A stretch of DNA of 52,694 bases from a virus. Taxonomy: Duplodnaviria; Caudoviricetes. The notes under the pieces were generated by a model that did no database searches, was not told where the DNA came from, and was given only the letters and a program-made list of their open reading frames with translations. This document shows positions 14,401 to 48,500 of the stretch, in pieces. Positions within the stretch are counted from its first letter, which is position 1; every line of letters starts with the position of its first letter. The stretch is from positions 1-52,694 of IMG/VR virus record IMGVR_UViG_3300035661_000082. One strand, given 5' to 3'. The translations under genes and the position numbers were made by a program.

Positions 14401-15294
14401 ATGAACACACAAGAAATCAAACAGCGCACACAAGAATGGTTTGAATCACGTAAGGGGCGCGTGACTGCGTCTAGCGTTGGAGCAATCCTTGGCCTATCGC
14501 CACACATGACATCCGGCGACGTGCTACGAATGATGGTGCGCGAATACCACGGCGCTGAGCGCGAGTTCAAAGGAAACGCAGCGACCGAGTGGGGAACTAT
14601 TAACGAGGATGCTGCAAAATGGGAATTTCAGATAGAGCACGGAATCACGATTAGCGAGTGCGGGTTTTACACGTGGGGCGATTGGGCAGGGGCTTCACCT
14701 GACGGGATTCTAAACGTTGAAGATGAAGGAAAAGATTTAACCATCATCGAAATTAAATGCCCATATGGGTTGAAGGACAATAAAGAGCCAGTATTCAAAA
14801 CGATTGAAGAACAGCCACACTACTACGCACAAATTCAGTTCCAACTCTATTGCGCAGATATGGCACAGTGCTATTTTTACCAATGGACACCTTACGACAC
14901 AAAGACTGAAATAGTTGGAGTTAACGATGAATGGCTGCGTGAAAACATTCCTAAGCTGGAAGAATTTCACAAAATCTACCTATCCGAGCTTAACAACCCT
15001 GAACACCTCGAGCCAAGGCGCAAGTCCATTGAAACCATTGAGGCACGTCAACTCCTTTCTGAATATGACCGCCTAAGCCATGAAATCGACCTGGCTGAAC
15101 AAGCCAAAAAAGACATCATGGATGACCTTGTCAAGATTGCAGGAGATAAAGACGCTCTTATTTGTGGCCGCAAGCTTACCAAGGTTGAAAAGTCCGGTGC
15201 TGTATCGTATGCCAAAGCAATCAAGGCGTTACTGCCAAGCGCAGACCTTGAACCCTATCGAGGCAAGCCTAGTATTTTTTGGAAGTTGACATGA
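14401..15294 (+). CDS. YqaJ/lambda-exonuclease family nuclease
   Basis: QRTQEWFESRKGRVTAS, ASPDG, EIKCP, YYAQIQFQL. Confidence 0.9.
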   Translation: MNTQEIKQRTQEWFESRKGRVTASSVGAILGLSPHMTSGDVLRMMVREYHGAEREFKGNAATEWGTINEDAAKWEFQIEHGITISECGFYTWGDWAGASPDGILNVEDEGKDLTIIEIKCPYGLKDNKEPVFKTIEEQPHYYAQIQFQLYCADMAQCYFYQWTPYDTKTEIVGVNDEWLRENIPKLEEFHKIYLSELNNPEHLEPRRKSIETIEARQLLSEYDRLSHEIDLAEQAKKDIMDDLVKIAGDKDALICGRKLTKVEKSGAVSYAKAIKALLPSADLEPYRGKPSIFWKLT

Positions 15295-17069
15295 AGCTTC
15301 GCCCCTACCAGCAACTTGCGCATGATTCGGTGATGGGTTGGGTGCGCTATTCTCGTGAGCCATGCTTGATTGAGGCCGCAACAGGCGCTGGGAAAAGCCT
15401 CATTATTGCTGCATTGGCTGAAAGTATGCGCACCATATCAGGCGGAAAGCATGTTTTATGCCTAGCCCCAAACGCCGAGCTAGTTATACAGAATCGTGAG
15501 AAGTATTTGGCCACTGGAAACTCTGCCAGCCTTTATTCAGCATCGGCTGGCCAAAAGTGCTTGCGCTATCCTGTTGTATTTGCAACTCCTGGCACATTCA
15601 AAAGCAAGGCGTACGCGATTGGCGAAAGGTTCTGCGCTGTTATTGTTGATGAGGCGCATCGCATATCGCCCGTGATCATCAACATCATTGAAGACATGAA
15701 GGAAAAAAACCAAAACCTTCGCGTTATTGGTCTATCAGCCACACCATACCGCATGGGCACTGGTTACATTTACCGCATGGATGAAAAGGGGCGTGCAAAC
15801 AGTGATACCAAGGCGAAAGACCCGTATTTCACGGCGAAAGTATTCACGATTACAGCCAAGGAGCTTATCGGGAAAGGATTTCTAACGCCACCAGTGATTG
15901 GATCAATTAACGGTGAACATTACGATGCGAAAAGCCTTGAACTCAATTCGCGTGGGCAATTCAACGCAGCAGACATCGACCGCGCATTCGTTGGGCATGG
16001 GCGCAAAACGTCGGCCATTGTGAACAACGTGGTTGAACAGAGCCGCAGCAGAAAAGGCGTGCTTTTGTACGCTGCCACTGTTGCCCATGCCTATGAAATT
16101 CTTGCGTCACTGCCTAAAGAACTATCCGCTATCATTACGGGTGAGACACCGGCCAAGGAGCGTGCAGATATTATTGCGCGTTTCAAGTCACAAAAAATAA
16201 AGTACCTGGTTAACCGTGACGTGCTTACTACGGGTTTCGACGCGCCCCATGTAGATGTGATTGCGCTGCTACGCGCAACTGAGTCTGAGAGTTTATTACA
16301 GCAGATTGTCGGGCGAGGCATGAGGCTATCGCCGGATAAAGAAAACTTTCTAGTTCTGGACTACGCAGAAAATATCGAGCGCCACTGCCCGGATGGTGAC
16401 TTGTTCAATCCTGACGTTAAGGTGAGAGGTGGCGATAGCGAAGCTGGTGAACTTGAAGTGCATTGCCCACTATGCAGCACCATTAACTCATTCACGGCGC
16501 GTCCTAATCCTGAAAACTATGATGTGACAAAAGACGGGTACTTTTCACTGCATGGTGGCGTTATTGAAATAGGTTTCGGTGACAAAAAATACCCGCTTCC
16601 TTCACACTTTGGGCGGCGATGCTTTGGCGAACACAAAGATGGATCAAGATGCGAGTACCGATGGAGCGCCAAAGAATGCCCCGAGTGTGGTGGCGATAAC
16701 GATATTGCCGCTCGGTATTGTTCGCATTGCAAAGCCGAACTTATAGACCCAAACGAGAAGTTAATCGCTGATTTTGTGGCGGCTAAAAAAGACCCTGAAA
16801 ATGTGCAAACGGACAAAGTACTAAGTTTTTCAGTGTCTGACCACATTACTCAAAAGGGCGAATCATGGAAGAAAATAACCGTTCAAACTGAATACCGATC
16901 ATTCAGGGTGTTCATGAATCCGAATCGAAAAGAGTATGCTAAGGTTATTGAAGTCACACATGATGGAAAGAAACCATATACTGTTACGTACCGCAAAGAA
17001 AAATCAAGCACGTTTTTCAAAATCCTAGCCTTCAACCTGCCCGAAGATGTTGCACCAAATGCAAAGTAA
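15291..17069 (+). CDS. SF2 DEAH helicase (RadD/YejH-like) with Zn-ribbons
   Basis: LRPYQ, ATGAGKS, DEAH, SAT, TGFD, QIVGRGMR; CxxC pairs in C-terminal half. Confidence 0.9.
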   Translation: MKLRPYQQLAHDSVMGWVRYSREPCLIEAATGAGKSLIIAALAESMRTISGGKHVLCLAPNAELVIQNREKYLATGNSASLYSASAGQKCLRYPVVFATPGTFKSKAYAIGERFCAVIVDEAHRISPVIINIIEDMKEKNQNLRVIGLSATPYRMGTGYIYRMDEKGRANSDTKAKDPYFTAKVFTITAKELIGKGFLTPPVIGSINGEHYDAKSLELNSRGQFNAADIDRAFVGHGRKTSAIVNNVVEQSRSRKGVLLYAATVAHAYEILASLPKELSAIITGETPAKERADIIARFKSQKIKYLVNRDVLTTGFDAPHVDVIALLRATESESLLQQIVGRGMRLSPDKENFLVLDYAENIERHCPDGDLFNPDVKVRGGDSEAGELEVHCPLCSTINSFTARPNPENYDVTKDGYFSLHGGVIEIGFGDKKYPLPSHFGRRCFGEHKDGSRCEYRWSAKECPECGGDNDIAARYCSHCKAELIDPNEKLIADFVAAKKDPENVQTDKVLSFSVSDHITQKGESWKKITVQTEYRSFRVFMNPNRKEYAKVIEVTHDGKKPYTVTYRKEKSSTFFKILAFNLPEDVAPNAK

Positions 17070-17433
17070 GAAAACAATCACGACGAAAAATAAAAAGCCA
17101 ATGCCAACCGAGCATGCTGAACAAGTCCACTTTGTTCAATGGATGGAAAAGAATCATCCAGGCGTTCGATTATTTGCGATACCCAATGGCGGATTTAGGC
17201 ACGCAGCTACAGCAACGAAACTCAAAGATGAAGGCGTTCGCCCAGGTGTGCCAGACATAATGATACCCGCGCTTCACCTGTTCATTGAAATGAAACGGGA
17301 AAAAGGCGGGCGCTTGTCTGCTGAGCAAAAGGACTGGATAGCGTACCTAAAAGAATGCGGCTATCAAGTAGAAGTATGTGCTGGCTCGCTTGAGTCAATC
17401 GCTGTAGTTAATAATTGCTTTGCACATACATAG
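17059..17433 (+). CDS. VRR-NUC domain nuclease
   Basis: EHAEQ...AIPNGG...GVPD...FIEMK...LSAEQ. Confidence 0.85.
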   Translation: MQSKKTITTKNKKPMPTEHAEQVHFVQWMEKNHPGVRLFAIPNGGFRHAATATKLKDEGVRPGVPDIMIPALHLFIEMKREKGGRLSAEQKDWIAYLKECGYQVEVCAGSLESIAVVNNCFAHT

Positions 17434-17521
17434 CAGGACATACCTTTAAGCCAAACGCGCAAAGGATATTAGTGGGATTACTTCCAGTCTGTATAGTTGA
17501 AAGTCTACGACTGGGCGATTT

Positions 17522-17917
17522 TTATTTGACCGTACCCCAGTCATGTTTTTTATCGAGTTCACGCGCTCGAATTGTGATGGTTGCGTTGGACTTTTTAAGT
17601 TCGTGCCGAGCTTCTTGCGCAGGTGTCTTGGTGTTTTTTGCTGGATTTTCGCCATTAACCATATGTGCCACCGCGTTGGAAAAGTTTCCATTCCATAGCG
17701 AAAGATTGGCTTTTGGAAAGTTCTTAGGCACCCATGTTTGAACTCTTTCCACCATGAGCTGATGTTTTATTATCCCGTGATCGCTTGCCGTCTTGTTAAG
17801 ATCGGCAAAGTCTATGTACCCCTTGTGCCCTCCTACGCAACGTACTGTTTCTATTAGTTGCAAATCAAGCTGCCATGCACGGACAATTTCTTCCGCCATT
17901 GTTTTAGTTAGTTTCAT
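17522..17917 (-). CDS. Hypothetical protein
   Basis: 131-aa ORF with AGGA RBS downstream of the methyltransferase. Confidence 0.6.
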   Translation of the reverse strand: MKLTKTMAEEIVRAWQLDLQLIETVRCVGGHKGYIDFADLNKTASDHGIIKHQLMVERVQTWVPKNFPKANLSLWNGNFSNAVAHMVNGENPAKNTKTPAQEARHELKKSNATITIRARELDKKHDWGTVK

Positions 17918-17941
17918 TCGTCATCCTAAACACAGTGATTT

Positions 17942-18973
17942 TCATTTCAGACTTACTCCTGCAAGGATGCTGAATGCGACTGCCGCTTGGAGCGGGACTT
18001 GTGCGTTACCGAGTCCTTTGATTCTTCCGGATCGGTCTTTAATTCCGGCCGCAACTCGCCCAATGTCTGGCTCGCTTTGCCACCAGCCCGAGTGAACCCC
18101 AATGGGAATCCCATCAGCCACTCCACCCACGCCGGATTGAGCTGGCCGATCTGACCACTGCGGATCATTGCTCCTGGTATGCTGTCCCGATCCGCTTGTG
18201 ATGGCGGAAGGGTACTGTTTTTCGCATCCTGTGCACTTGGTGTTGACCACATCATAACCACAGTCGCAAGTCCGCCCCCGCTGGTCGCTGAACATCCCTT
18301 GCGGTTGTGGTTCCCATTTACTGTTGGTGTCGGCCACATCTGCATATTTGAAACCTGATCCCTTAGATTCGCTGGCTTGATCCTGCCCGGCCTTGTAATC
18401 GTCGCTTCCCTCTCCAATGCTTTTGATGACTTTGGAGGCATCGAGTCTAGCGTGTTCGGTGTTGCCCATTGTTGCCATGCACCACCATCGTTCACGCTTG
18501 TGATTCGCCCCAACGTCGGCAGCAGATAAACACAGCCATTGCGCGTTATAGCCGATTTCAAAGATGTCTTTTGCGATAACTTCGAGGTAGTCTTTTGACT
18601 TAGATGTGATGGCTGCAACATTCTCCAAGAAGATGATTCGCGGTCGAACAATACTTGCGATTCGTAAAACTTCCCGGTAGAGACCGCTTCGTGTATCGCC
18701 CCCAATCCCTGCCTGACTTCCGGCGTTGCTAATATCTTGGCAAGGGAATCCTGCATGGATGATGTCCACTCGGCCGGTGTATTCGGATGGATCGAACAGC
18801 CGAACGTCACCCTCGTGCACATGCAAGTCTGGGAACCAACCACCTGCGGCTCTCTCTTGCAGGACTTGGCAGGCGTACTTATCCCACTCAATAGCAACGA
18901 TTGGTTTGTGTCCGAGGATAAGATCGGAAAGCAAGCCGCCTCCGATGCCGGAAAAAATGTGCATTGTTTGCAT
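17942..18973 (-). CDS. DNA cytosine-5 methyltransferase, alpha chain (motifs I-VIII and X; lacks motif IX)
   Basis: FSGIGG (I), IEWD (II), GFPCQD (IV), LENV (VI), HKRERWW (VIII), RIKGLGNAQV (X). Confidence 0.9.
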   Translation of the reverse strand: MQTMHIFSGIGGGLLSDLILGHKPIVAIEWDKYACQVLQERAAGGWFPDLHVHEGDVRLFDPSEYTGRVDIIHAGFPCQDISNAGSQAGIGGDTRSGLYREVLRIASIVRPRIIFLENVAAITSKSKDYLEVIAKDIFEIGYNAQWLCLSAADVGANHKRERWWCMATMGNTEHARLDASKVIKSIGEGSDDYKAGQDQASESKGSGFKYADVADTNSKWEPQPQGMFSDQRGRTCDCGYDVVNTKCTGCEKQYPSAITSGSGQHTRSNDPQWSDRPAQSGVGGVADGIPIGVHSGWWQSEPDIGRVAAGIKDRSGRIKGLGNAQVPLQAAVAFSILAGVSLK

Positions 18974-18990
18974 AGCTCTTCATCCCTCAT
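17953..18990 (-). CDS. Alternative-frame ORF: putative beta chain of the C5-MTase (TRD + motif IX); true start uncertain
   Basis: 345 open codons over the whole MTase gene; LPT/WATP/WPTP/WSTP repeats and LNPAWVEWLMGFP, resembling motif IX (LTPRExxRLQGFP). Confidence 0.7.
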   Translation of the reverse strand: MRDEELCKQCTFFPASEAACFPILSSDTNQSLLLSGISTPAKSCKREPQVVGSQTCMCTRVTFGCSIHPNTPAEWTSSMQDSLAKILATPEVRQGLGAIHEAVSTGKFYESQVLFDRESSSWRMLQPSHLSQKTTSKLSQKTSLKSAITRNGCVYLLPTLGRITSVNDGGAWQQWATPNTLDSMPPKSSKALEREATITRPGRIKPANLRDQVSNMQMWPTPTVNGNHNRKGCSATSGGGLATVVMMWSTPSAQDAKNSTLPPSQADRDSIPGAMIRSGQIGQLNPAWVEWLMGFPLGFTRAGGKASQTLGELRPELKTDPEESKDSVTHKSRSKRQSHSASLQE

Positions 18991-19184
18991 TCATCAGCCT
19001 CGACACAGTGACTACAAACACCGTATCCAATGGGTGCCCTATCGTTTCGATCACTGCATTTAATGCACAGTGCTTCGCCACGCATTGGATTCATTGCCCC
19101 ATTAACCAGCACGTTCTGAATCTGGTTTTCGAGCCAAAGCTCTGAAAGCTCGCTGGCTTTGTCAAGGTTATCGCTATCGTTCAT
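18987..19184 (-). CDS. TraR/DksA-like C4 zinc-finger protein
   Basis: DNLDKAS acidic tip; CIKC...CSHC. Confidence 0.7.
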   Translation of the reverse strand: MNDSDNLDKASELSELWLENQIQNVLVNGAMNPMRGEALCIKCSDRNDRAPIGYGVCSHCVEADE

Positions 19185-19366
19185 TGTTTTTTACCCAACT
19201 GCTGGCTTTCGAGGTAGCGAATCACTTTGCTAATCATCGAGTATTTCGGTTCAGTCACACCCATGCACATCCAACCGTAAAGCTGGGAATAAGGCACGCC
19301 CGCAGATTTTGCTACCGCCTTCAGGTTGTAGTCTTTTAATTTCAGTTTAATTTCTTCAATGTCCAC
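19181..19366 (-). CDS. Cro-like HTH regulator (paralogue of 12632-12826)
   Basis: NLKAVAKSAGVPYSQLYGW HTH; AGGAG RBS before GTG. Confidence 0.75.
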   Translation of the reverse strand: MDIEEIKLKLKDYNLKAVAKSAGVPYSQLYGWMCMGVTEPKYSMISKVIRYLESQQLGKKQ

Positions 19367-19393
19367 AAAAAACTCCTTTGTCTTGACGGTGAC

Positions 19394-19486
19394 ATGCTAA
19401 CAAACTCAAACAAAAAGTCAACACCTAAAAATAAATCACGCAAACACAAAAAAAGTTGTTTACACAGATTAATTGCCATGTAAAAT
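19394..19486. promoter_or_regulatory. Divergent sigma70-like promoter pair
   Basis: Minus strand TTGACT-16-TAGCAT with TG extension; plus strand TTTACA-16-TAAAAT (19459-19486) with upstream A-tract. Confidence 0.55.
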
Positions 19487-19549
19487 GCCTAGCCATCGAA
19501 GCACAACAACTTCGATGCCAATCCGGGGCAGTCCGGCAGAGTAAACAAA

Positions 19550-20050
19550 GTGAAAATTAAATTCTCGGCAATAACCGACCCAGACAAAATTATGGATGCA
19601 GTCCATAAAGATGTCTTCAATCTACGGTACGTTCCTGAATCACTCATAACTGAGGAAGTGGCAATGGCCGCTATGCTGGAAGACGGCTACATGCTCCAGT
19701 ACGTTCCAGACACGCTCAAGACTGAATCCTTGTTGCTTGCCGCTGTCAATCAAAACGGCGAATCACTCCAGTGCGTGCATGGATCTCTTATGACTGAGGC
19801 CGTGGTACTGGCTGCTGTGCAGCAAGACTGCTACGCACTCCGGTACGTTCCAGACGATCTCAAGAACGAATCAGTGGTGCTTTCCGCTGTGCAGCAAAGC
19901 GGCGAATTACTCCAGTATGTGCCCGAATCATTAAGGACTGAGGACGTAGTGATGGCTGCCGTAAAACAAGACATCGACGCGCTACGATACATTCTTGACC
20001 GGGCAATGTTCGATCTTATCGCAAATAAATTAGGCATCGAAACCGAATAA
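19550..20050 (+). CDS. DUF4116-like tandem helical repeat protein, copy 1
   Basis: ~24-aa repeats AV.Q.G..L.YVPESL.TE.VVL. Confidence 0.85.
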   Translation: MKIKFSAITDPDKIMDAVHKDVFNLRYVPESLITEEVAMAAMLEDGYMLQYVPDTLKTESLLLAAVNQNGESLQCVHGSLMTEAVVLAAVQQDCYALRYVPDDLKNESVVLSAVQQSGELLQYVPESLRTEDVVMAAVKQDIDALRYILDRAMFDLIANKLGIETE

Positions 20051-45516: not shown

Positions 45517-48500
45517 ATGAACTATGAAGCAGAAGTTGACAAGCTAATCGGCGCTACCGCTGCCAAGCCTGCTAATGTCGATCCCGCTGCCAAGCCTGCT
45601 AATGTAGATTACGACAAGCAGGTAGATCAGCTCATTGCATCAAAAAAGAAAGCCCCGATGACGGATTCCGAATGGCAGGCTGAAAAGGAGTCGCACCAAG
45701 AAAACGCCCTGCAACGTGGCTGGCACAGCATGGCTAATTCTGTTGATGCAACGGCAAAGCTGGCGACAAAGGACTATGAAGGCATTGCCGACATTCAGGC
45801 AGATAATGCTAACTACCGGGCAATGAACCCTGGAACCAAGAGCGCCAATGAGTTAACAGACGCATTTCGTGCCGAGGGGAATAACGACCAGTCTGCTGCG
45901 GGAGGTTTCGAGAACTTCAAGGCAGGCGTAGGACGCATGGTCGATGTTGCGGCCAACAACTACAACAAGGCACAAGGATTTATCCCCAAGGCGCGTTCGG
46001 CACTTGATACGGCTGGCGGCGTTGTATCAGTTCTTGGTGAGCAAATACCAAACATGGTTCCAGGACTTGTTGGTATGGGTATAGGATCAGTTGGCGGAGC
46101 GGAAGCTGGTGCGCCAACAGGCGCGGCGATAGGCTCAGCAGGTGGTCCGGTAGGAGCAGCGGCAGGAGGAGCAACTGGCGCGGCAGTTGGTTCGTACATA
46201 GGCGGATCAGCGGGTTCTGGTGTAGGTAATGCACTCGTCGAAGGCGGAGGCATGATCGAGCAAGACTTGCAAAAGGCAGGAATTAAACCGGGCGATAAAG
46301 AGGCAACAGTCGCCTACCTCAAAGATCATGGGGATAAAATCCTAGAGCAAGCTGGAATCAAGGGAGCTGTTATAGGTGCAGTTGACCGTGCAACAATTGG
46401 GATGGCACACAACCTATTGACCGCACCAGGACGCGCGGCAGAGCAACGCGCAATGACCTCACTTGGCGTTGATACAGCGGACAATGCAGCCGTATCTGCA
46501 GCACGGAATACGCAGCGCGAAGCAATTGGCAAACTTGTTGCAAACGATGCAGCTTACCAAGCATCTAAAACGGGTATTGGTGCAGTAGCTCGAGATACGG
46601 CAGCGTTTGGCCTTGAGCCGCTTGGCGAGTTTACAGGCGAGTATGTCGGTGAAGGTCTTGGCCGTGGAAACTGGGACACTAAGGAATCCGCGTTTGAGGC
46701 GCTTATGTCCCTTGGTCAGTCTGGGCTTATCTTTACCGGACAGAAGGCAGCACAGGCCATTAAAGCTCCATTCGAGCAGCAAGATACCTCATCGGGTGCA
46801 GCCACGCCAAATGCAGCTCCACCAAATTCTCCACCAAATTCTCTACCAAACGCTACCCAAAACGCATCCACCCAAAACGCTGCCACCCAAAACGCATCCA
46901 CCCAAAACGCTGCTACCCAAAACGCATCCACCCAAAACGCTGCTACCCAAAACGCATCCAACCAAAACGCTGCTACACAAAACTCTGCTAACCAAAACGC
47001 GGCCACACAATCACAGCAAGCAAACCAGCTCACGCCAGAAGCATTGCAAGCATTGTCGAGAATATCCGACGAGCAGCTACCCGGTGTTCGAGAGAAAGTC
47101 GCTTCAATGCCAGACTCGAAGCATAAGACAGCCATTCAAGAGGCGCTTGATGCTACGGTGGAGCAAAGGGCAGCGCTTGGATATACGCCACACGTTGACG
47201 ATGAAGGCTACACCTACAGCATGGATAGACACGCTGTTGAGTCGTTGCAAGAACAGGCGCGTAAAGCAAGCACAGCAGCCATTATGGAAAGTCTTGGACA
47301 CCTTGCAAATCAGGACAACGCAAGCGATACAACCCGTATTTATGAGCGTGAACTTAACCAACGCTATAAAGAAAACCAGCAAGCAACTCAAGATGTAGCA
47401 GCAAAGAGTGCCGATACACCAACTACAGCAACGCCTACGCCTACAGATGTGCAAGCCGCAAAAGCCAATGCCGACTTAAATCCAACGCTCGCTAATGCGG
47501 CGGATCTTCATTCTAGTATGCAACAAGCAGCTCAGGCAGTGCAGACCGTTGCGCCAGCGAATGCAGCAACAGCAGCGAATGCAGAGACCGCAGCAGCTAA
47601 ATGGGCAAGATTTAACCCGATACAACGCAATGGATTTATTGGAAATCTTGGTATTGAGACACTAGGAGTAGAAGGCGCGAATCTGCGCAATGAGAGCGAC
47701 ATTACCAAGCTGCCCCCGCATGTACAGCAGGTCATCGAGGCTGCGCATAATCCTATCCCGGCAGATAAGTTCAATCCGACACACACTGATAAACTCGGTA
47801 GACCGCTAATGGCCTATCCTGGGATTGATGGCGTTTACCAGGATGAGCGAAGTAATGTTTTCAGGTCTGATTCAGTGCCGCCCACTCCAATCCAACAAGC
47901 GCCTGTAACAACTGCTACTCAGAGCCAACAAGAGACTGTAACACCTCAATCAAGCAGCAAGAGCTTTACACCTAATCCACGATCATGGGGAGCGCAGGAA
48001 ACAAACAATCTTGCGCAGATTATTCGCAAAGCCGGTGGGATACACAAAAAACATGCGACTGAAATTATCGGAGATGAAACTAAGCATTCAAAAACCAAAG
48101 GGTTTTTTACCAACAACGGAATGGGGATTGATGATGCTATTGATCTTGCGAAATCGCATAATTTCATTATCAATCTGCGAAAAGGCGAAGACGAAACAGA
48201 GGCATATATTGATCTATTTGCACGAGCAGCAAATGGCGAAAAAGTAACTAATTACCAAAACGCTGACCTAGAAAGACAATACCAAAATCTTTTAGACGAA
48301 GATGAGGCACGTGCAAAAGAAGATGCACTCGAAGCGCAGCTAACCGCTGATGAAATAAAAAAGAGCGATTTAATCGCACAAGAACTTAGCGATGCAGACC
48401 CAAATGAGGTTGAAAGCGTCATTGATGACATAGAGGGGGCTACTAACGCATTGAGTGATGGCACATTCACCGAATGGCTTAATGAATACACAACAGAACA

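What the first reader, a model, noticed from the sequence alone, without database searches (positions are those of the whole stretch)
17942..18990. Two-chain cytosine methyltransferase encoded by two fully overlapping frames
Seen: frame A (343 aa) has C5-MTase motifs I, II, IV, VI, VIII and X, but its variable region looks unstructured and it lacks motif IX. Frame B (345 aa) is open across the whole gene and contains repeated WATP/WPTP/WSTP units and LNPAWVEWLMGFP, a motif-IX-like segment. Frame B's ATG overlaps the upstream stop (ATGA at 18987-18990), while frame A has its own purine-rich leader. Established: in M.EcoHK31I, motif IX is supplied by a beta polypeptide encoded in an alternative frame within the alpha gene. 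Inference: this is a phage heterodimeric MTase. The three to four repeated (W/L)xTP units may be multiple small target-recognition modules, i.e. a multispecific and expandable anti-restriction methylase. Double ribosomal frameshifting is an alternative explanation.
Basis: partly seen in the sequence, partly recalled or inferred. Interest (0 to 1): 0.72.

Follow-up and report, generated by a model that had tools for sequence, protein, structure and literature searches.

The report
Phage cytosine methylase in two frames
One 1.05-kb gene of this uncultured phage is kept open in two overlapping reading frames that most likely give the catalytic chain and the DNA-recognition chain of a single DNA cytosine methyltransferase, a design proven for one E. 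coli enzyme and here part of a very large phage family.

Summary
On the minus strand, frame A (17942-18973, 343 aa) and frame B (17953-18990, 345 aa, +1 to A) are both open.

- **Frame A.** It has the C5-methyltransferase large domain (Pfam PF00145 on residues 1-175 only). A 130-residue unstructured stretch follows, then the motif X helices.
- **Frame B.** It carries three WxTP modules and LNPAWVEWLMGFPLGFT.
- **Conservation.** The same layout occurs in 76 of 78 viral and 75 of 76 metagenome loci. Both frames stay stop-free far beyond synonymous-shuffle expectation, and frame B has its own ATG.
- **This window.** A 22-codon insert separates two motifs that share the same nucleotides in 70 of 71 loci. 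Each motif survives only in its own frame.
- **Complex model.** ipSAE 0.89 against 0.00 for the best control.

My reading is a two-chain enzyme like M.EcoHK31I, not double frameshifting. Multispecificity of the modules is untested. No translation, binding or activity was measured. Similar overlaps have been noticed in print (PMC5601072), and this scan found the design before on other DNA.

The parts
17942..18973 (-). Frame A ORF (alpha chain, 343 aa, stop at 17942-17944). An alternative start lies at 18964.
   Evidence: PF00145 on residues 1-175. PHROG phrog_363 'DNA methyltransferase', E 1.7e-54.
17953..18990 (-). Frame B ORF (beta chain, 345 aa, +1 relative to A, stop at 17953-17955).
   Evidence: No Pfam family. 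PHROG phrog_1008 'DNA methyltransferase' on residues 74-314, E 8.6e-18. 588 relatives found. 51,821 cluster representatives at E<=1e-3.
18449..18973 (-). Alpha residues 1-175: large catalytic domain, motifs I-VIII. These include FSGIGG, GFPCQDIS, ENV and HKRERWW; the motif numbering is recalled from the C5-MTase literature.
   Evidence: Block-mean pLDDT 83-98. Family-invariant residues G12, P77, C78, E117, N118, R160, R162.
18086..18448 (-). Alpha residues 176-296: poorly conserved, unstructured connector that lies over beta's modules.
   Evidence: pLDDT below 50 for residues 183-312, no secondary structure. Frame A is stop-free here in 76 of 77 viral and 74 of 74 metagenome loci, against 5.4 and 6.6 expected.
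17945..18085 (-). Alpha residues 297-343: WWQSEPDIGRVAAG...RIKGLGNAQVP (pre-X segment and motif X helices).
   Evidence: Invariant W298, E301, R306, R314, R317, G322, N323, V326. Helices 314-338 with pLDDT 83-96. Predicted contacts with beta.
18811..18990 (-). Beta residues 1-60: Cys-rich N-terminal extension, optional within the family.
   Evidence: pLDDT about 40 and no predicted contacts. Absent from the 33 loci whose beta starts at +130..+193. Frame B has stops here in the relatives L018 and L028.
18511..18798 (-). Beta residues 65-160: predicted docking part (helix 72-102 and two hairpins). It is encoded over alpha's motifs IV-VIII.
   Evidence: Interface residues 65-122 and 138-164. pLDDT up to 88. 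Frame B is stop-free here in 76 of 76 loci against 12.2 expected.
18142..18474 (-). Beta residues 173-283: three WxTP modules (WATP 175, WPTP 219, WSTP 248), the putative target-recognition part.
   Evidence: In some searches this stretch is conserved in frame B, and frame A's first codon position is the most variable there.
18091..18141 (-). Beta residues 284-300: LNPAWVEWLMGFPLGFT, the motif IX-like segment.
   Evidence: Invariant or near-invariant L284, N285, P286, W288, V289, E290, W291, L292, M293, P296, T300. Contacts alpha residues 15 and 321-327 at 0.4-0.6 A expected error.
18025..18090 (-). 22-codon insert found only in this window. It separates beta's motif IX-like segment from alpha's EP..GRVA segment.
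   Evidence: The offset between the two motifs is 68 nt here and 2 nt in 70 of 71 loci. Three-frame view. Window-only alignment columns.
18987..18990 (-). ATGA: beta's start codon overlaps the stop codon of the upstream gene.
18987..19184 (-). Upstream 65-aa ORF (weak DksA-like zinc-finger match) whose stop is coupled to beta's start.
   Evidence: phrog_54, E 3.8e-4. No Pfam hit.

Best explanation
The gene encodes two polypeptides from two overlapping frames, and together they form one DNA (cytosine-5) methyltransferase.

- **Alpha (frame A).** It is the large catalytic domain (motifs I-VIII), then a roughly 120-130-residue unstructured connector, then the motif X helices. The connector exists only because frame A must stay open to reach motif X.
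- **Beta (frame B).** It starts at its own ATG, here coupled to the stop of the upstream gene. It has an optional Cys-rich head (1-60), a docking part (about 65-160) predicted to pack on alpha's motif I and motif X helices and extend its sheet, three WxTP modules (173-283) that most likely read the target sequence, and a motif IX-like helix (284-300).
- **Role.** No restriction enzyme gene is nearby, so the enzyme is most likely an orphan phage methylase that protects phage DNA from host restriction.

**Shown here:** the two ORFs, their conservation, stop avoidance in both frames, the start-codon pattern, and the separation of the two 3' motifs in this window.

**Inferred:** translation of both frames, heterodimer formation, target recognition by beta, and the anti-restriction role.
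For: 1. **Layout.** All 78 viral loci with both pieces have the module/motif IX part at +1 to motifs I-VIII. In 76 of 78 the motif X part is back in frame A. A second sample gave 75 of 76 metagenome loci.
2. **Frame A kept open across beta's modules.**
   - Viral loci: 76 of 77 have no stop, against 5.4 expected. There were 14 stops in all, against 269.8 expected.
   - Metagenome loci: 74 of 74 have no stop, against 6.6 expected.
   - All 14 observed stops lie in L034, where alpha ends after motif VIII. Its count matches the neutral expectation of 12.8, which checks the null model.
3. **Frame B kept open upstream of the modules.** Over about 100 codons, 76 of 76 loci have no stop against 12.2 expected (0 stops against 132.7).
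4. **Frame B has its own start.**
   - The first ATG lies within 5 codons of the frame-opening stop in 59 of 76 loci, with a median of 1 codon. For all 632 long ORFs in those loci the share is 26%.
   - Start positions cluster. 22 of 69 loci have NTGAATG, with B's start 4 nt after A's. 33 of 69 start at +130..+193.
5. **The two 3' motifs share nucleotides.** Beta's LNP..GxT segment and alpha's EP..GR segment use the same nucleotides in 70 of 71 loci, so one ribosome pass cannot make both. In this window they are 22 codons apart.
   - The first segment keeps every conserved beta residue. Alpha's invariant E, P and R there have become Q, S and G, in two cases through changes that are silent in B.
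   - The second segment keeps alpha's invariants and has lost beta's motif.
6. **Complex model.** ipSAE was 0.89 in 3 of 3 runs, and the best of 3 controls scored 0.00.
   - The tool's mark was reached by 58 of 80 solved complexes and 2 of 110 mismatched pairs. These counts are only rough here because I supplied my own alignments.
   - The runs agree in at least 46% of contacts, and the partner's pLDDT is at least 55.
   - The predicted interface starts at beta residue 65. This is where the short-beta class begins, at window-equivalent residues 50-71.
7. **Single-chain models.** Alpha alone has a confident large domain and motix X helices joined by residues 183-312 at pLDDT below 50. Beta alone has confident elements at 72-102, 112-125 and 147-156.
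8. **Variants that only make sense for separate chains.**
   - L029 carries motif X at the end of beta's frame.
   - L034 has alpha ending after motif VIII, a free-standing beta, and a separate small ORF with motif X.
9. **Precedent.** M.EcoHK31I needs an alpha chain and a beta chain, beta is encoded in another frame inside alpha's gene, and N-terminal deletions of beta weaken association (passages of PMC2836561).
Against: - No experiment or expression data were used. Translation of frame B, binding and activity are all inferred.
- Beta has no detectable relative among solved structures. The profile search gave a best E of 0.3. Foldseek gave a best E of 5. VIA gave Z below 4, on one helix only. 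So 'motif IX' and 'target recognition' rest on pattern resemblance, position and the model.
- My test for extra amino-acid conservation of frame B over alpha's catalytic part was confounded. The unused +2 frame also exceeded the null (z 30, against 42 for frame B), because the sequences are related.
- For this window alone, frame B's openness over alpha is only modestly unlikely (2.9% of permutations).
- Beta residues 1-55 are low confidence. That part of frame B has stops in L018 and L028, so the true start of beta here is uncertain.
- L010 has a stop in frame A after motif VIII.
- The complex score is a model's confidence, not a measurement.
Confidence: 0.78

Rival explanations
1. Beta is real but shorter. 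Translation of frame B starts at an internal ATG (for example Met57 or Met79 of the 345-aa ORF). The first 55-80 codons of frame B are open only by chance or because of alpha's codon constraints. The enzyme is still two-chain, but the genes are not 'fully' overlapping in function.
For: - 33 of 69 loci start beta at +130..+193 nt, which corresponds to window residues 50-71.
- Beta residues 1-55 have pLDDT about 40 and make no predicted contacts.
- Frame B has stops in this part in the relatives L018 and L028.
- The Cys pattern of beta's head lies over a strongly conserved alpha segment, so it may be a shadow of alpha.
Against: - In this window the ORF begins with an ATG that overlaps the upstream stop codon as ATGA.
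- In the window's subfamily (L004, L005, L006, L011, L012) frame B also starts 5-14 nt upstream of alpha's start.
- 36 of 81 loci have no frame-B stop over the whole motif I-VIII match, against 4.6 expected.
Confidence: 0.3
2. A single polypeptide is made by two programmed ribosomal frameshifts: +1 after motif VIII into frame B, then -1 after GFPLGFT back into frame A. This would rebuild a canonical I-VIII / TRD / IX / X methylase.
For: The order of conserved pieces (A, then B, then A) is that of a canonical single-chain enzyme. In this window alone the insert places beta's motif upstream of alpha's segment, so a linear path exists.
Against: - Frame A is kept stop-free through the whole frame-B part (76 of 77 and 74 of 74 loci). 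A shifted ribosome would not need this.
- Frame B has its own ATG and at least about 100 conserved open codons upstream of the supposed shift site.
- In 70 of 71 loci the two 3' motifs use the same nucleotides.
- There is no frame-A stop at the junction, which many known +1 frameshift sites use (this feature is recalled).
- I did not scan for slippery sequences.
Confidence: 0.04
3. Only frame A is expressed and functional. Frame B is an untranslated shadow frame kept open by codon bias or constraints at the nucleotide level.
For: Most database annotations call only one gene here; for example, Acinetobacter phage ABMM1 has only gp60 annotated. Part of frame B's sequence similarity over alpha's catalytic domain can be a shadow of alpha.
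Against: - Across the modules frame B is the better conserved frame. B_mid matched at 30-58% identity where A_mid mostly gave no match. Frame A's first codon position, which is B's third, is the most variable there.
- In the window's first 3' segment, beta's motif is intact while alpha's invariant residues are lost.
- Alpha alone lacks any structured small domain.
- The start-codon pattern argues for translation of frame B.
- The complex model scores 0.89 against 0.00.
Confidence: 0.03
4. It is a broken gene or a sequencing artefact: two compensating indels in an ordinary methylase gene.
For: The window is a single uncultured-virus record, and I did not look at reads.
Against: The same +1/0 layout occurs in 76 of 78 viral and 75 of 76 metagenome loci of 30-60% identity, and in cultured phages of Paenibacillus and Acinetobacter. 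Both frames are fully open here.
Confidence: 0.01

Closest known systems
M.EcoHK31I (E. coli HK31, YGGCCR). I know it from passages of PMC2836561. The 1995 paper, PMC306636, is not held.
   Same: It is a C5 methyltransferase that needs two polypeptides. [quoted passage not shown]
   Different: According to that paper, alpha also holds the TRD and beta is a small chain nested inside alpha. Here beta is as long as alpha, starts upstream of it, and carries the docking part and the WxTP modules as well as the motif IX-like helix. Alpha's 'variable region' is unstructured. I could not test sequence relatedness to M.EcoHK31I because I had no sequence of it.
Overlapping C5-methyltransferase ORFs of Streptococcus thermophilus 5093-group phages, pneumococcal phage MM1 and Tn5252 (passage of PMC5601072; the MM1 and Tn5252 papers were not seen).
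   Same: [quoted passage not shown]
   Different: The overlap is only noted in the passage I read, with no function or mechanism assigned. No Streptococcus phage appeared among the organisms listed in my tblastn searches with frame B of the window or of phage Diva. They may therefore be a separate subfamily, which I did not test.
Paenibacillus larvae phage Diva gp49/gp50 and Acinetobacter phage vB_AbaM_ABMM1 gp60 (GenBank annotations).
   Same: They have the same two-frame layout and a homologous beta (E 1e-21 and 9e-10). In Diva the second frame is annotated as 'g49 internal gene', DNA methyltransferase.
   Different: Diva's beta starts 184 nt into alpha (the short class). ABMM1 has the ATGAATG double start, and only alpha is annotated. 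Neither has the 22-codon insert.
Canonical single-chain C5 methyltransferases (M.HhaI, M.HaeIII; PF00145).
   Same: The alpha profile matches M.HhaI residues 12-178 at E 8.7e-39. The catalytic motifs are intact.
   Different: No match beyond motif VIII. The small domain is not in alpha's frame.
M.AquI (alpha/beta C5 methylase split within the variable region) and the multispecific Bacillus phage methylases (SPR, phi3T, rho11s). Both are recalled, and I read no paper on either here.
   Same: M.AquI is a natural enzyme of two chains, with motifs IX and X on the second chain, like variant L029. The multispecific enzymes have several short target-recognising modules in tandem in the variable region, like the WxTP modules.
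   Different: As I recall, M.AquI's chains are not co-extensive overlapping frames. The multispecific enzymes are single chains, and no link between the WxTP modules and separate targets has been shown.

Membership tests
DNA (cytosine-5) methyltransferase, PF00145 | Large-domain motifs I, IV (PCQ with the catalytic Cys), VI (ENV) and VIII. | tested here: met
   PF00145, E 6.6e-37, residues 1-175. M.HhaI 12-178, E 8.7e-39. Invariant G12, P77, C78, E117, N118, R160, R162.
DNA (cytosine-5) methyltransferase, PF00145 | Motif X (GN..) helix at the C-terminus of the same chain. | tested here: met
   Invariant G322, N323, V326. Helices 314-338 at pLDDT 83-96. The Pfam profile itself did not align this part.
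DNA (cytosine-5) methyltransferase, PF00145 | Target-recognition domain and motif IX in the same polypeptide, between motifs VIII and X. | tested here: not met
   Alpha residues 183-312 have pLDDT below 50 and no secondary structure. Pfam and M.HhaI matches stop at residues 175-178. The conserved sequence of this stretch is in frame B.
Two-polypeptide C5 methyltransferase of the M.EcoHK31I type | A second chain encoded in another reading frame within the first chain's gene. | tested here: met
   Frame B is open, has its own ATG, and is conserved.
Two-polypeptide C5 methyltransferase of the M.EcoHK31I type | The second chain supplies motif IX. | tested here: inconclusive
   LNPAWVEWLMGFPLGFT fits the recalled motif IX pattern (L.P......L.GFP..F). 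It is the most conserved part of beta. It is predicted to pack on alpha's motif X helix. No profile or fold search links it to solved methylases.
Two-polypeptide C5 methyltransferase of the M.EcoHK31I type | The first chain keeps the TRD and the second chain is small. | tested here: not met
   Beta is 345 aa and holds the conserved modules. Alpha's middle part is unstructured. This differs from the description in PMC2836561.
Two-polypeptide C5 methyltransferase of the M.EcoHK31I type | Both chains are required for methylation. | not testable with these tools
   This needs expression and a methylation assay. The only support here is a complex model (0.89 against 0.00 for the best control).
Two-polypeptide C5 methyltransferase of the M.EcoHK31I type | Sequence homology to M.EcoHK31I alpha and beta. 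| not tested
   No sequence of M.EcoHK31I was available from any tool, and the 1995 paper is not held.
Programmed ribosomal frameshift gene | The second frame has no initiation of its own, and the first frame need not stay open after the shift site. | tested here: not met
   Frame B has its own ATG next to the frame-opening stop in 59 of 76 loci. Frame A stays open in 76 of 77 and 74 of 74 loci.

The most novel reading that the evidence does not exclude
Beta is a free-standing specificity subunit built from exchangeable WxTP cassettes. Each cassette may read its own target, as in the multispecific Bacillus phage methylases. Placing the cassettes over alpha's unstructured connector would be the point of the design. 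Cassettes can then be gained, lost or swapped by recombination with almost no cost to the catalytic chain, which only needs to stay stop-free. Phages could thereby re-aim their anti-restriction methylation quickly. This window's 22-codon insert would be a snapshot of such a rearrangement at the one place where both frames are constrained.
Probability: 0.25. Interest if true: 0.78.

Novelty: new variant of a known kind. Interest (0 to 1): 0.6.

Why it matters
- **Overlapping genes.** If both frames are translated, this is one of the longest and most widespread same-strand overlapping gene pairs in prokaryotic viruses. About 1 kb is read twice. The beta profile finds 51,821 cluster representatives at E<=1e-3 and 15,079 at E<=1e-30.
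- **Annotation.** Gene callers keep only one frame, so databases hold either a methylase without a recognition domain or a 'hypothetical protein'. Of the 120 best relatives of beta, 119 carry no Pfam family.
- **Restriction-modification biology.** It would extend the single M.EcoHK31I case to a general phage design. It would also place the recognition part on the second chain.
- **Evidence for overlapping genes.** This window adds a rare natural control. The two 3' motifs, normally written in the same nucleotides, have come apart here, and each is kept only in its own frame.
- **Engineering.** A naturally split methylase with a modular recognition chain is a possible scaffold for targeted methylation.

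Tried and rejected
1. **Near-identical DNA in cultured phages.** None found.
2. **Close relatives for a dN/dS-type test.** The metagenome scan gave nothing closer than 37-45% identity over a long match, so no such test was possible.
3. **Synonymous-shuffle test of frame-B amino-acid identity over alpha's catalytic part.** Frame B exceeded the null (z 42), but so did the unused +2 frame (z 30), because the sequences are related. I do not use it.
4. **Fold of beta.**
   - The AF2 monomer has mean pLDDT 59.
   - Foldseek against the PDB gave a best E of 5.
   - VIA wide search gave Z below 4, matching only the long helix 54-106.
   - The beta profile against PDB sequences gave a best E of 0.3.
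   - This says nothing either way about the fold.
5. **Is the window's 22-codon insert a tandem duplication?** The two 66-nt segments are not significantly alike as DNA (217 of 1000 shuffles reach the score). I call it an insert, possibly an old duplication.
6. **Promoter and terminator scans of 17400-19700.** Counts were at chance level.
7. **Protein Atlas.** The nearest clusters are unnamed and mostly viral. This adds nothing beyond.
8. **The Cys pattern in beta's head (C56, C58, C65, H68) as a zinc site.** It lies over a strongly conserved alpha segment and is lost in L012, so I could not separate it from a shadow of alpha.
10. **Not done.** I ran no slippery-site scan and looked at no reads or RNA runs.
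11. **Papers not read.** I read passages only of PMC2836561, PMC6070908 and PMC5601072. Supplements are closed, and those of PMC2836561 may hold sequence details of M.EcoHK31I. The Paenibacillus phage paper (PMC6070908) lists two DNA-cytosine methyltransferase genes, but the passages I saw say nothing on their overlap. Searches for a printed description were. They do not cover subscription journals.
Full report
**What is in the window**

On the minus strand two ORFs overlap almost completely. Frame A runs 17942..18973 (343 aa). Frame B runs 17953..18990 (345 aa) and is +1 to A. B's ATG overlaps the TGA of the upstream 65-aa ORF as ATGA at 18987-18990. A's first ATG (18973) follows GGGATGAAGAG, and a second ATG lies at 18964. 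The window is a whole uncultured-virus record of 52,694 bases, estimated 97% complete.

The gene sits in a minus-strand run:
- a small regulator (19181-19366, phrog_18104);
- a 65-aa ORF with a weak DksA-like zinc-finger match;
- the methylase;
- a 131-aa ORF of unknown family.

This run converges on a helicase and a VRR-NUC-like nuclease gene on the plus strand. No restriction enzyme gene was seen nearby.

**Frame A**

- Pfam PF00145 matches residues 1-175 only (profile positions 1-168 of 324, E 6.6e-37).
- A profile of 60 alpha sequences matches M.HhaI residues 12-178 (E 8.7e-39) and nothing further along.
- In the AF2 model, residues 1-170 have block-mean pLDDT 83-98. Residues 183-312 are below 50 without secondary structure. 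Helices 314-338 have pLDDT 83-96.
- Family-invariant residues include G12, P77, C78, E117, N118, R160, R162, and then W298, E301, R306, R314, R317, G322, N323, V326.

Alpha is therefore a complete large domain (motifs I-VIII plus X; the numbering is recalled) joined by an unstructured stretch where the small domain should be.

**Frame B**

- It has no Pfam family.
- It matches PHROG phrog_1008, named 'DNA methyltransferase', on residues 74-314.
- It has 588 relatives at E<=1e-3 among 2319 candidates. Many cover 85-99% of it, and 119 of the 120 listed have no Pfam domain.
- A profile of 81 sequences finds 51,821 cluster representatives at E<=1e-3, 40,210 at 1e-10 and 15,079 at 1e-30.
- The most conserved part is LNPxWVEWLMGxPxGxT. 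WxTP modules precede it, and a block of the type SWKT..Q.S....TWPRxG lies further upstream.

**Is the layout conserved?**

I fetched 80 viral loci by patterns from frame B only. I then located five pieces of the window's two proteins in them by tblastn.
- 2 of the 80 loci lacked a piece (L027, L028).
- In all 78 others, the module/motif IX piece lies at +1 to the motif I-VIII piece.
- In 76 of 78 the motif X piece is back in frame A. The exceptions are L029 and L034.
- In 75 of 78, frame A runs uninterrupted to motif X. L010 has one stop.

A second sample of 80 metagenome loci gave the same layout in 75 of 76. The exception is L094, and 4 loci lacked pieces. Cultured phages show it too. In Paenibacillus phage Diva the second frame is annotated as gp50, 'g49 internal gene'. 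In Acinetobacter phage ABMM1 only gp60 is annotated. The beta of Diva finds 92 phage records, with hosts including Paenibacillus, Salmonella, Escherichia (N15 gp58), Burkholderia, Xanthomonas and Gordonia. Sequencing error or a broken gene is therefore excluded.

**Are both frames kept open by selection?**

I permuted synonymous codons within each sequence as the null.

| Test | Loci with no stop | Expected | Stops observed / expected |
|---|---|---|---|
| Frame A across the frame-B module part, viral | 76 of 77 | 5.4 | 14 / 269.8 |
| Frame A across the frame-B module part, metagenome | 74 of 74 | 6.6 | 0 / 206.8 |
| Third frame across the same part, viral (control) | 0 | not calculated | 564 / not calculated |
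| Frame B over about 100 codons upstream of its modules | 76 of 76 | 12.2 | 0 / 132.7 |

- In the first viral test, 4 of 81 loci were dropped because the HSP held a stop or N.
- All 14 observed stops are in L034, where alpha ends right after motif VIII. Its count matches the neutral expectation of 12.8, which is a useful check of the null.
- In the frame-B test, 5 of 81 loci were dropped: L010 and L034 for a frame-A stop, and 3 cut by a contig end.
- For the window alone the figures are weaker in one direction. Frame A over B: 0 of 5000 permutations are stop-free. Frame B over A: 2.9% are stop-free.

**Does frame B start on its own?**

The first ATG of frame B lies within 5 codons of the stop that opens the frame in 59 of 76 loci (median 1 codon). 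The share is 26% for all 632 long ORFs of the same loci. Among the 69 loci with clean ends, the starts fall into classes:
- 33 lie within -14..+16 nt of alpha's start. Of these, 22 have NTGAATG, where B's ATG follows A's start codon by one base.
- 33 lie at +130..+193 nt.
- One each lies at +22, +79 and +280.

The window belongs to the first class, at -17 nt from A's first ATG. The late class begins at window-equivalent beta residues 50-71.

**The window's special feature**

In 70 of the 71 loci where both motifs were found by pattern, beta's LNP..GxT segment and alpha's EP..GR segment are offset by exactly 2 nt. They are written in the same nucleotides (10 of 81 loci were not matched by my patterns). 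In the window they are 68 nt apart, because a 22-codon insert (18025-18090) separates them.
- The upstream segment keeps every conserved beta residue (LNPAWVEWLMGFPLGFT). In frame A, the family-invariant E, P and R have become Q, S and G. Two of these arose through third-position changes that are silent in frame B.
- The downstream segment keeps alpha's WWQSEPDIGRVAAG...RIKGLGNAQVP. In frame B it reads GKASQTLGELRPELKTDPEE, with the motif gone.

Each motif is thus kept only in its own frame once they are uncoupled. This shows that neither is merely the shadow of the other. The two segments are not significantly alike as DNA, so I cannot show that the insert arose by duplication. None of the 22 relatives aligned has it.

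**Structure models**

Alpha and beta, each with its alignment, gave ipSAE 0.89 in 3 of 3 runs against 0.00 for the best of 3 controls.
- The tool's mark was reached by 58 of 80 solved complexes and 2 of 110 mismatched pairs. This is only roughly applicable here, since I supplied my own alignments.
- The runs share at least 46% of contacts, and the partner's pLDDT is at least 55.
- The interface uses beta residues 65-122, 138-183, 209-214 and 280-304. On alpha it uses 10-46, 120-163 and 294-340.
- Beta's long helix is predicted to pack on alpha's motif I and motif X helices. Beta 143-154 pairs with alpha's edge strand 143-150. The motif IX-like helix touches alpha residues 15 and 321-327.

The model supports binding and does not show it. 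Beta has no sequence relative among solved structures, so the pass is not a recall of a like complex by sequence, though memory of the fold cannot be excluded. Beta alone is modelled with mean pLDDT 59. Residues 1-55 are at about 40, and the confident elements are 72-102, 112-125 and 147-156.

**Variants**

- L029 has motif X at the end of beta's frame after an insert of about 110 residues, while alpha stops after a degenerate EP..GRVAD.
- L034 has alpha ending after motif VIII, a free-standing beta, and a separate 81-codon ORF carrying EP..PRVA...RLKQLGNSVVP.
- L010 has a single TAA in alpha's connector.

The first two are natural for an enzyme assembled from separate chains.

**Modules**

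The window's beta has three WxTP modules, each a loop followed by a short helix, and the last helix is the motif IX-like one. Across 81 beta sequences a rough pattern count gives 1 to 6 units with a mode of 3. The count is inflated where my anchor pattern failed, as it did for the window itself. Signatures of the window's module types occur in different combinations: type 1 in 32, type 2 in 27 and type 3 in 3 of 81. Only the window has all three. The module set is therefore mosaic. Whether each module reads a target of its own is untested.

**Comparison with what is known**

- Passages of PMC2836561 describe M.EcoHK31I. Alpha and beta must associate. Beta is encoded entirely in a different frame within alpha's gene. 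Alpha holds motifs I-VIII, X and the TRD. Beta holds motif IX. N-terminal deletions of beta weaken association.
- A passage of PMC5601072 notes that the C5 methylases of S. thermophilus 5093-group phages show 'apparent total overlap' in different reading frames. It says similar overlaps were seen in pneumococcal phage MM1 and Tn5252.
- I found no paper that assigns the recognition part to the second frame or describes the family-wide pattern. Subscription journals and the 1995 paper were not available.
- This scan has noted the same design many times on other DNA: 145 notes hold my search words. I used those notes as leads only and tested the claims on this window myself.

**Verdict**

The two-chain reading is well supported by comparative evidence and a model, but not by experiment. 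Double frameshifting is unlikely. Multispecificity is open. The gene is a variant of the M.EcoHK31I kind with a much larger second chain. This window adds a natural uncoupling of the two 3' motifs.

Noticed in passing
window 46589-47398 (+): A 269-codon stop-to-stop ORF rich in PPKT(L/H) repeats has a completely stop-free +2 frame. It is probably the shadow of a repeat-containing gene, or the reverse.
   Followed up: no
L029:2670-4056: A variant locus. Motif X (RVDRLKAIGNGQVP) sits at the end of beta's frame after an insert of about 110 residues with no Pfam match. Alpha ends after a degenerate EP..GRVAD.
   Followed up: partly
L034:599-2082: A variant locus in three pieces: alpha ending after motif VIII, a free-standing beta, and a separate 81-codon ORF with the pre-X and X motifs. 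Frame A over beta's modules carries 14 stops, which matches the neutral expectation of 12.8.
   Followed up: partly
P0048 (protein): A 326-aa called protein has motif I (residues 6-45, E 3e-4 to alpha) in frame with beta's core (residues 93-306, E 6e-50 to beta). It is either a different frame arrangement or a frameshifted contig. Its DNA could not be fetched.
   Followed up: partly
window 18795-18825 (-), beta residues 56-68: The pattern C-x-C-x6-C-x2-H is nearly invariant in the window's beta subfamily. It lies over a strongly conserved alpha segment (LHVHEGDVRLFDPSEY) and is lost in L012. A zinc site cannot be told apart from a shadow of alpha.
   Followed up: partly
L003, L008, L014 and 19 other loci, start region: The double start NTGAATGAG(C/T)T recurs in 22 of 69 loci. 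Alpha's start codon, one base, then beta's ATG, with beta's frame opened by the TGA inside ATGA. Both chains could therefore be started from one ribosome landing site.
   Followed up: partly
window 17047-17433 (+) and 15279-17069 (+): The helicase gene (phrog_16) and the VRR-NUC-like gene (phrog_824) overlap by 23 nt and converge on the methylase operon.
   Followed up: no
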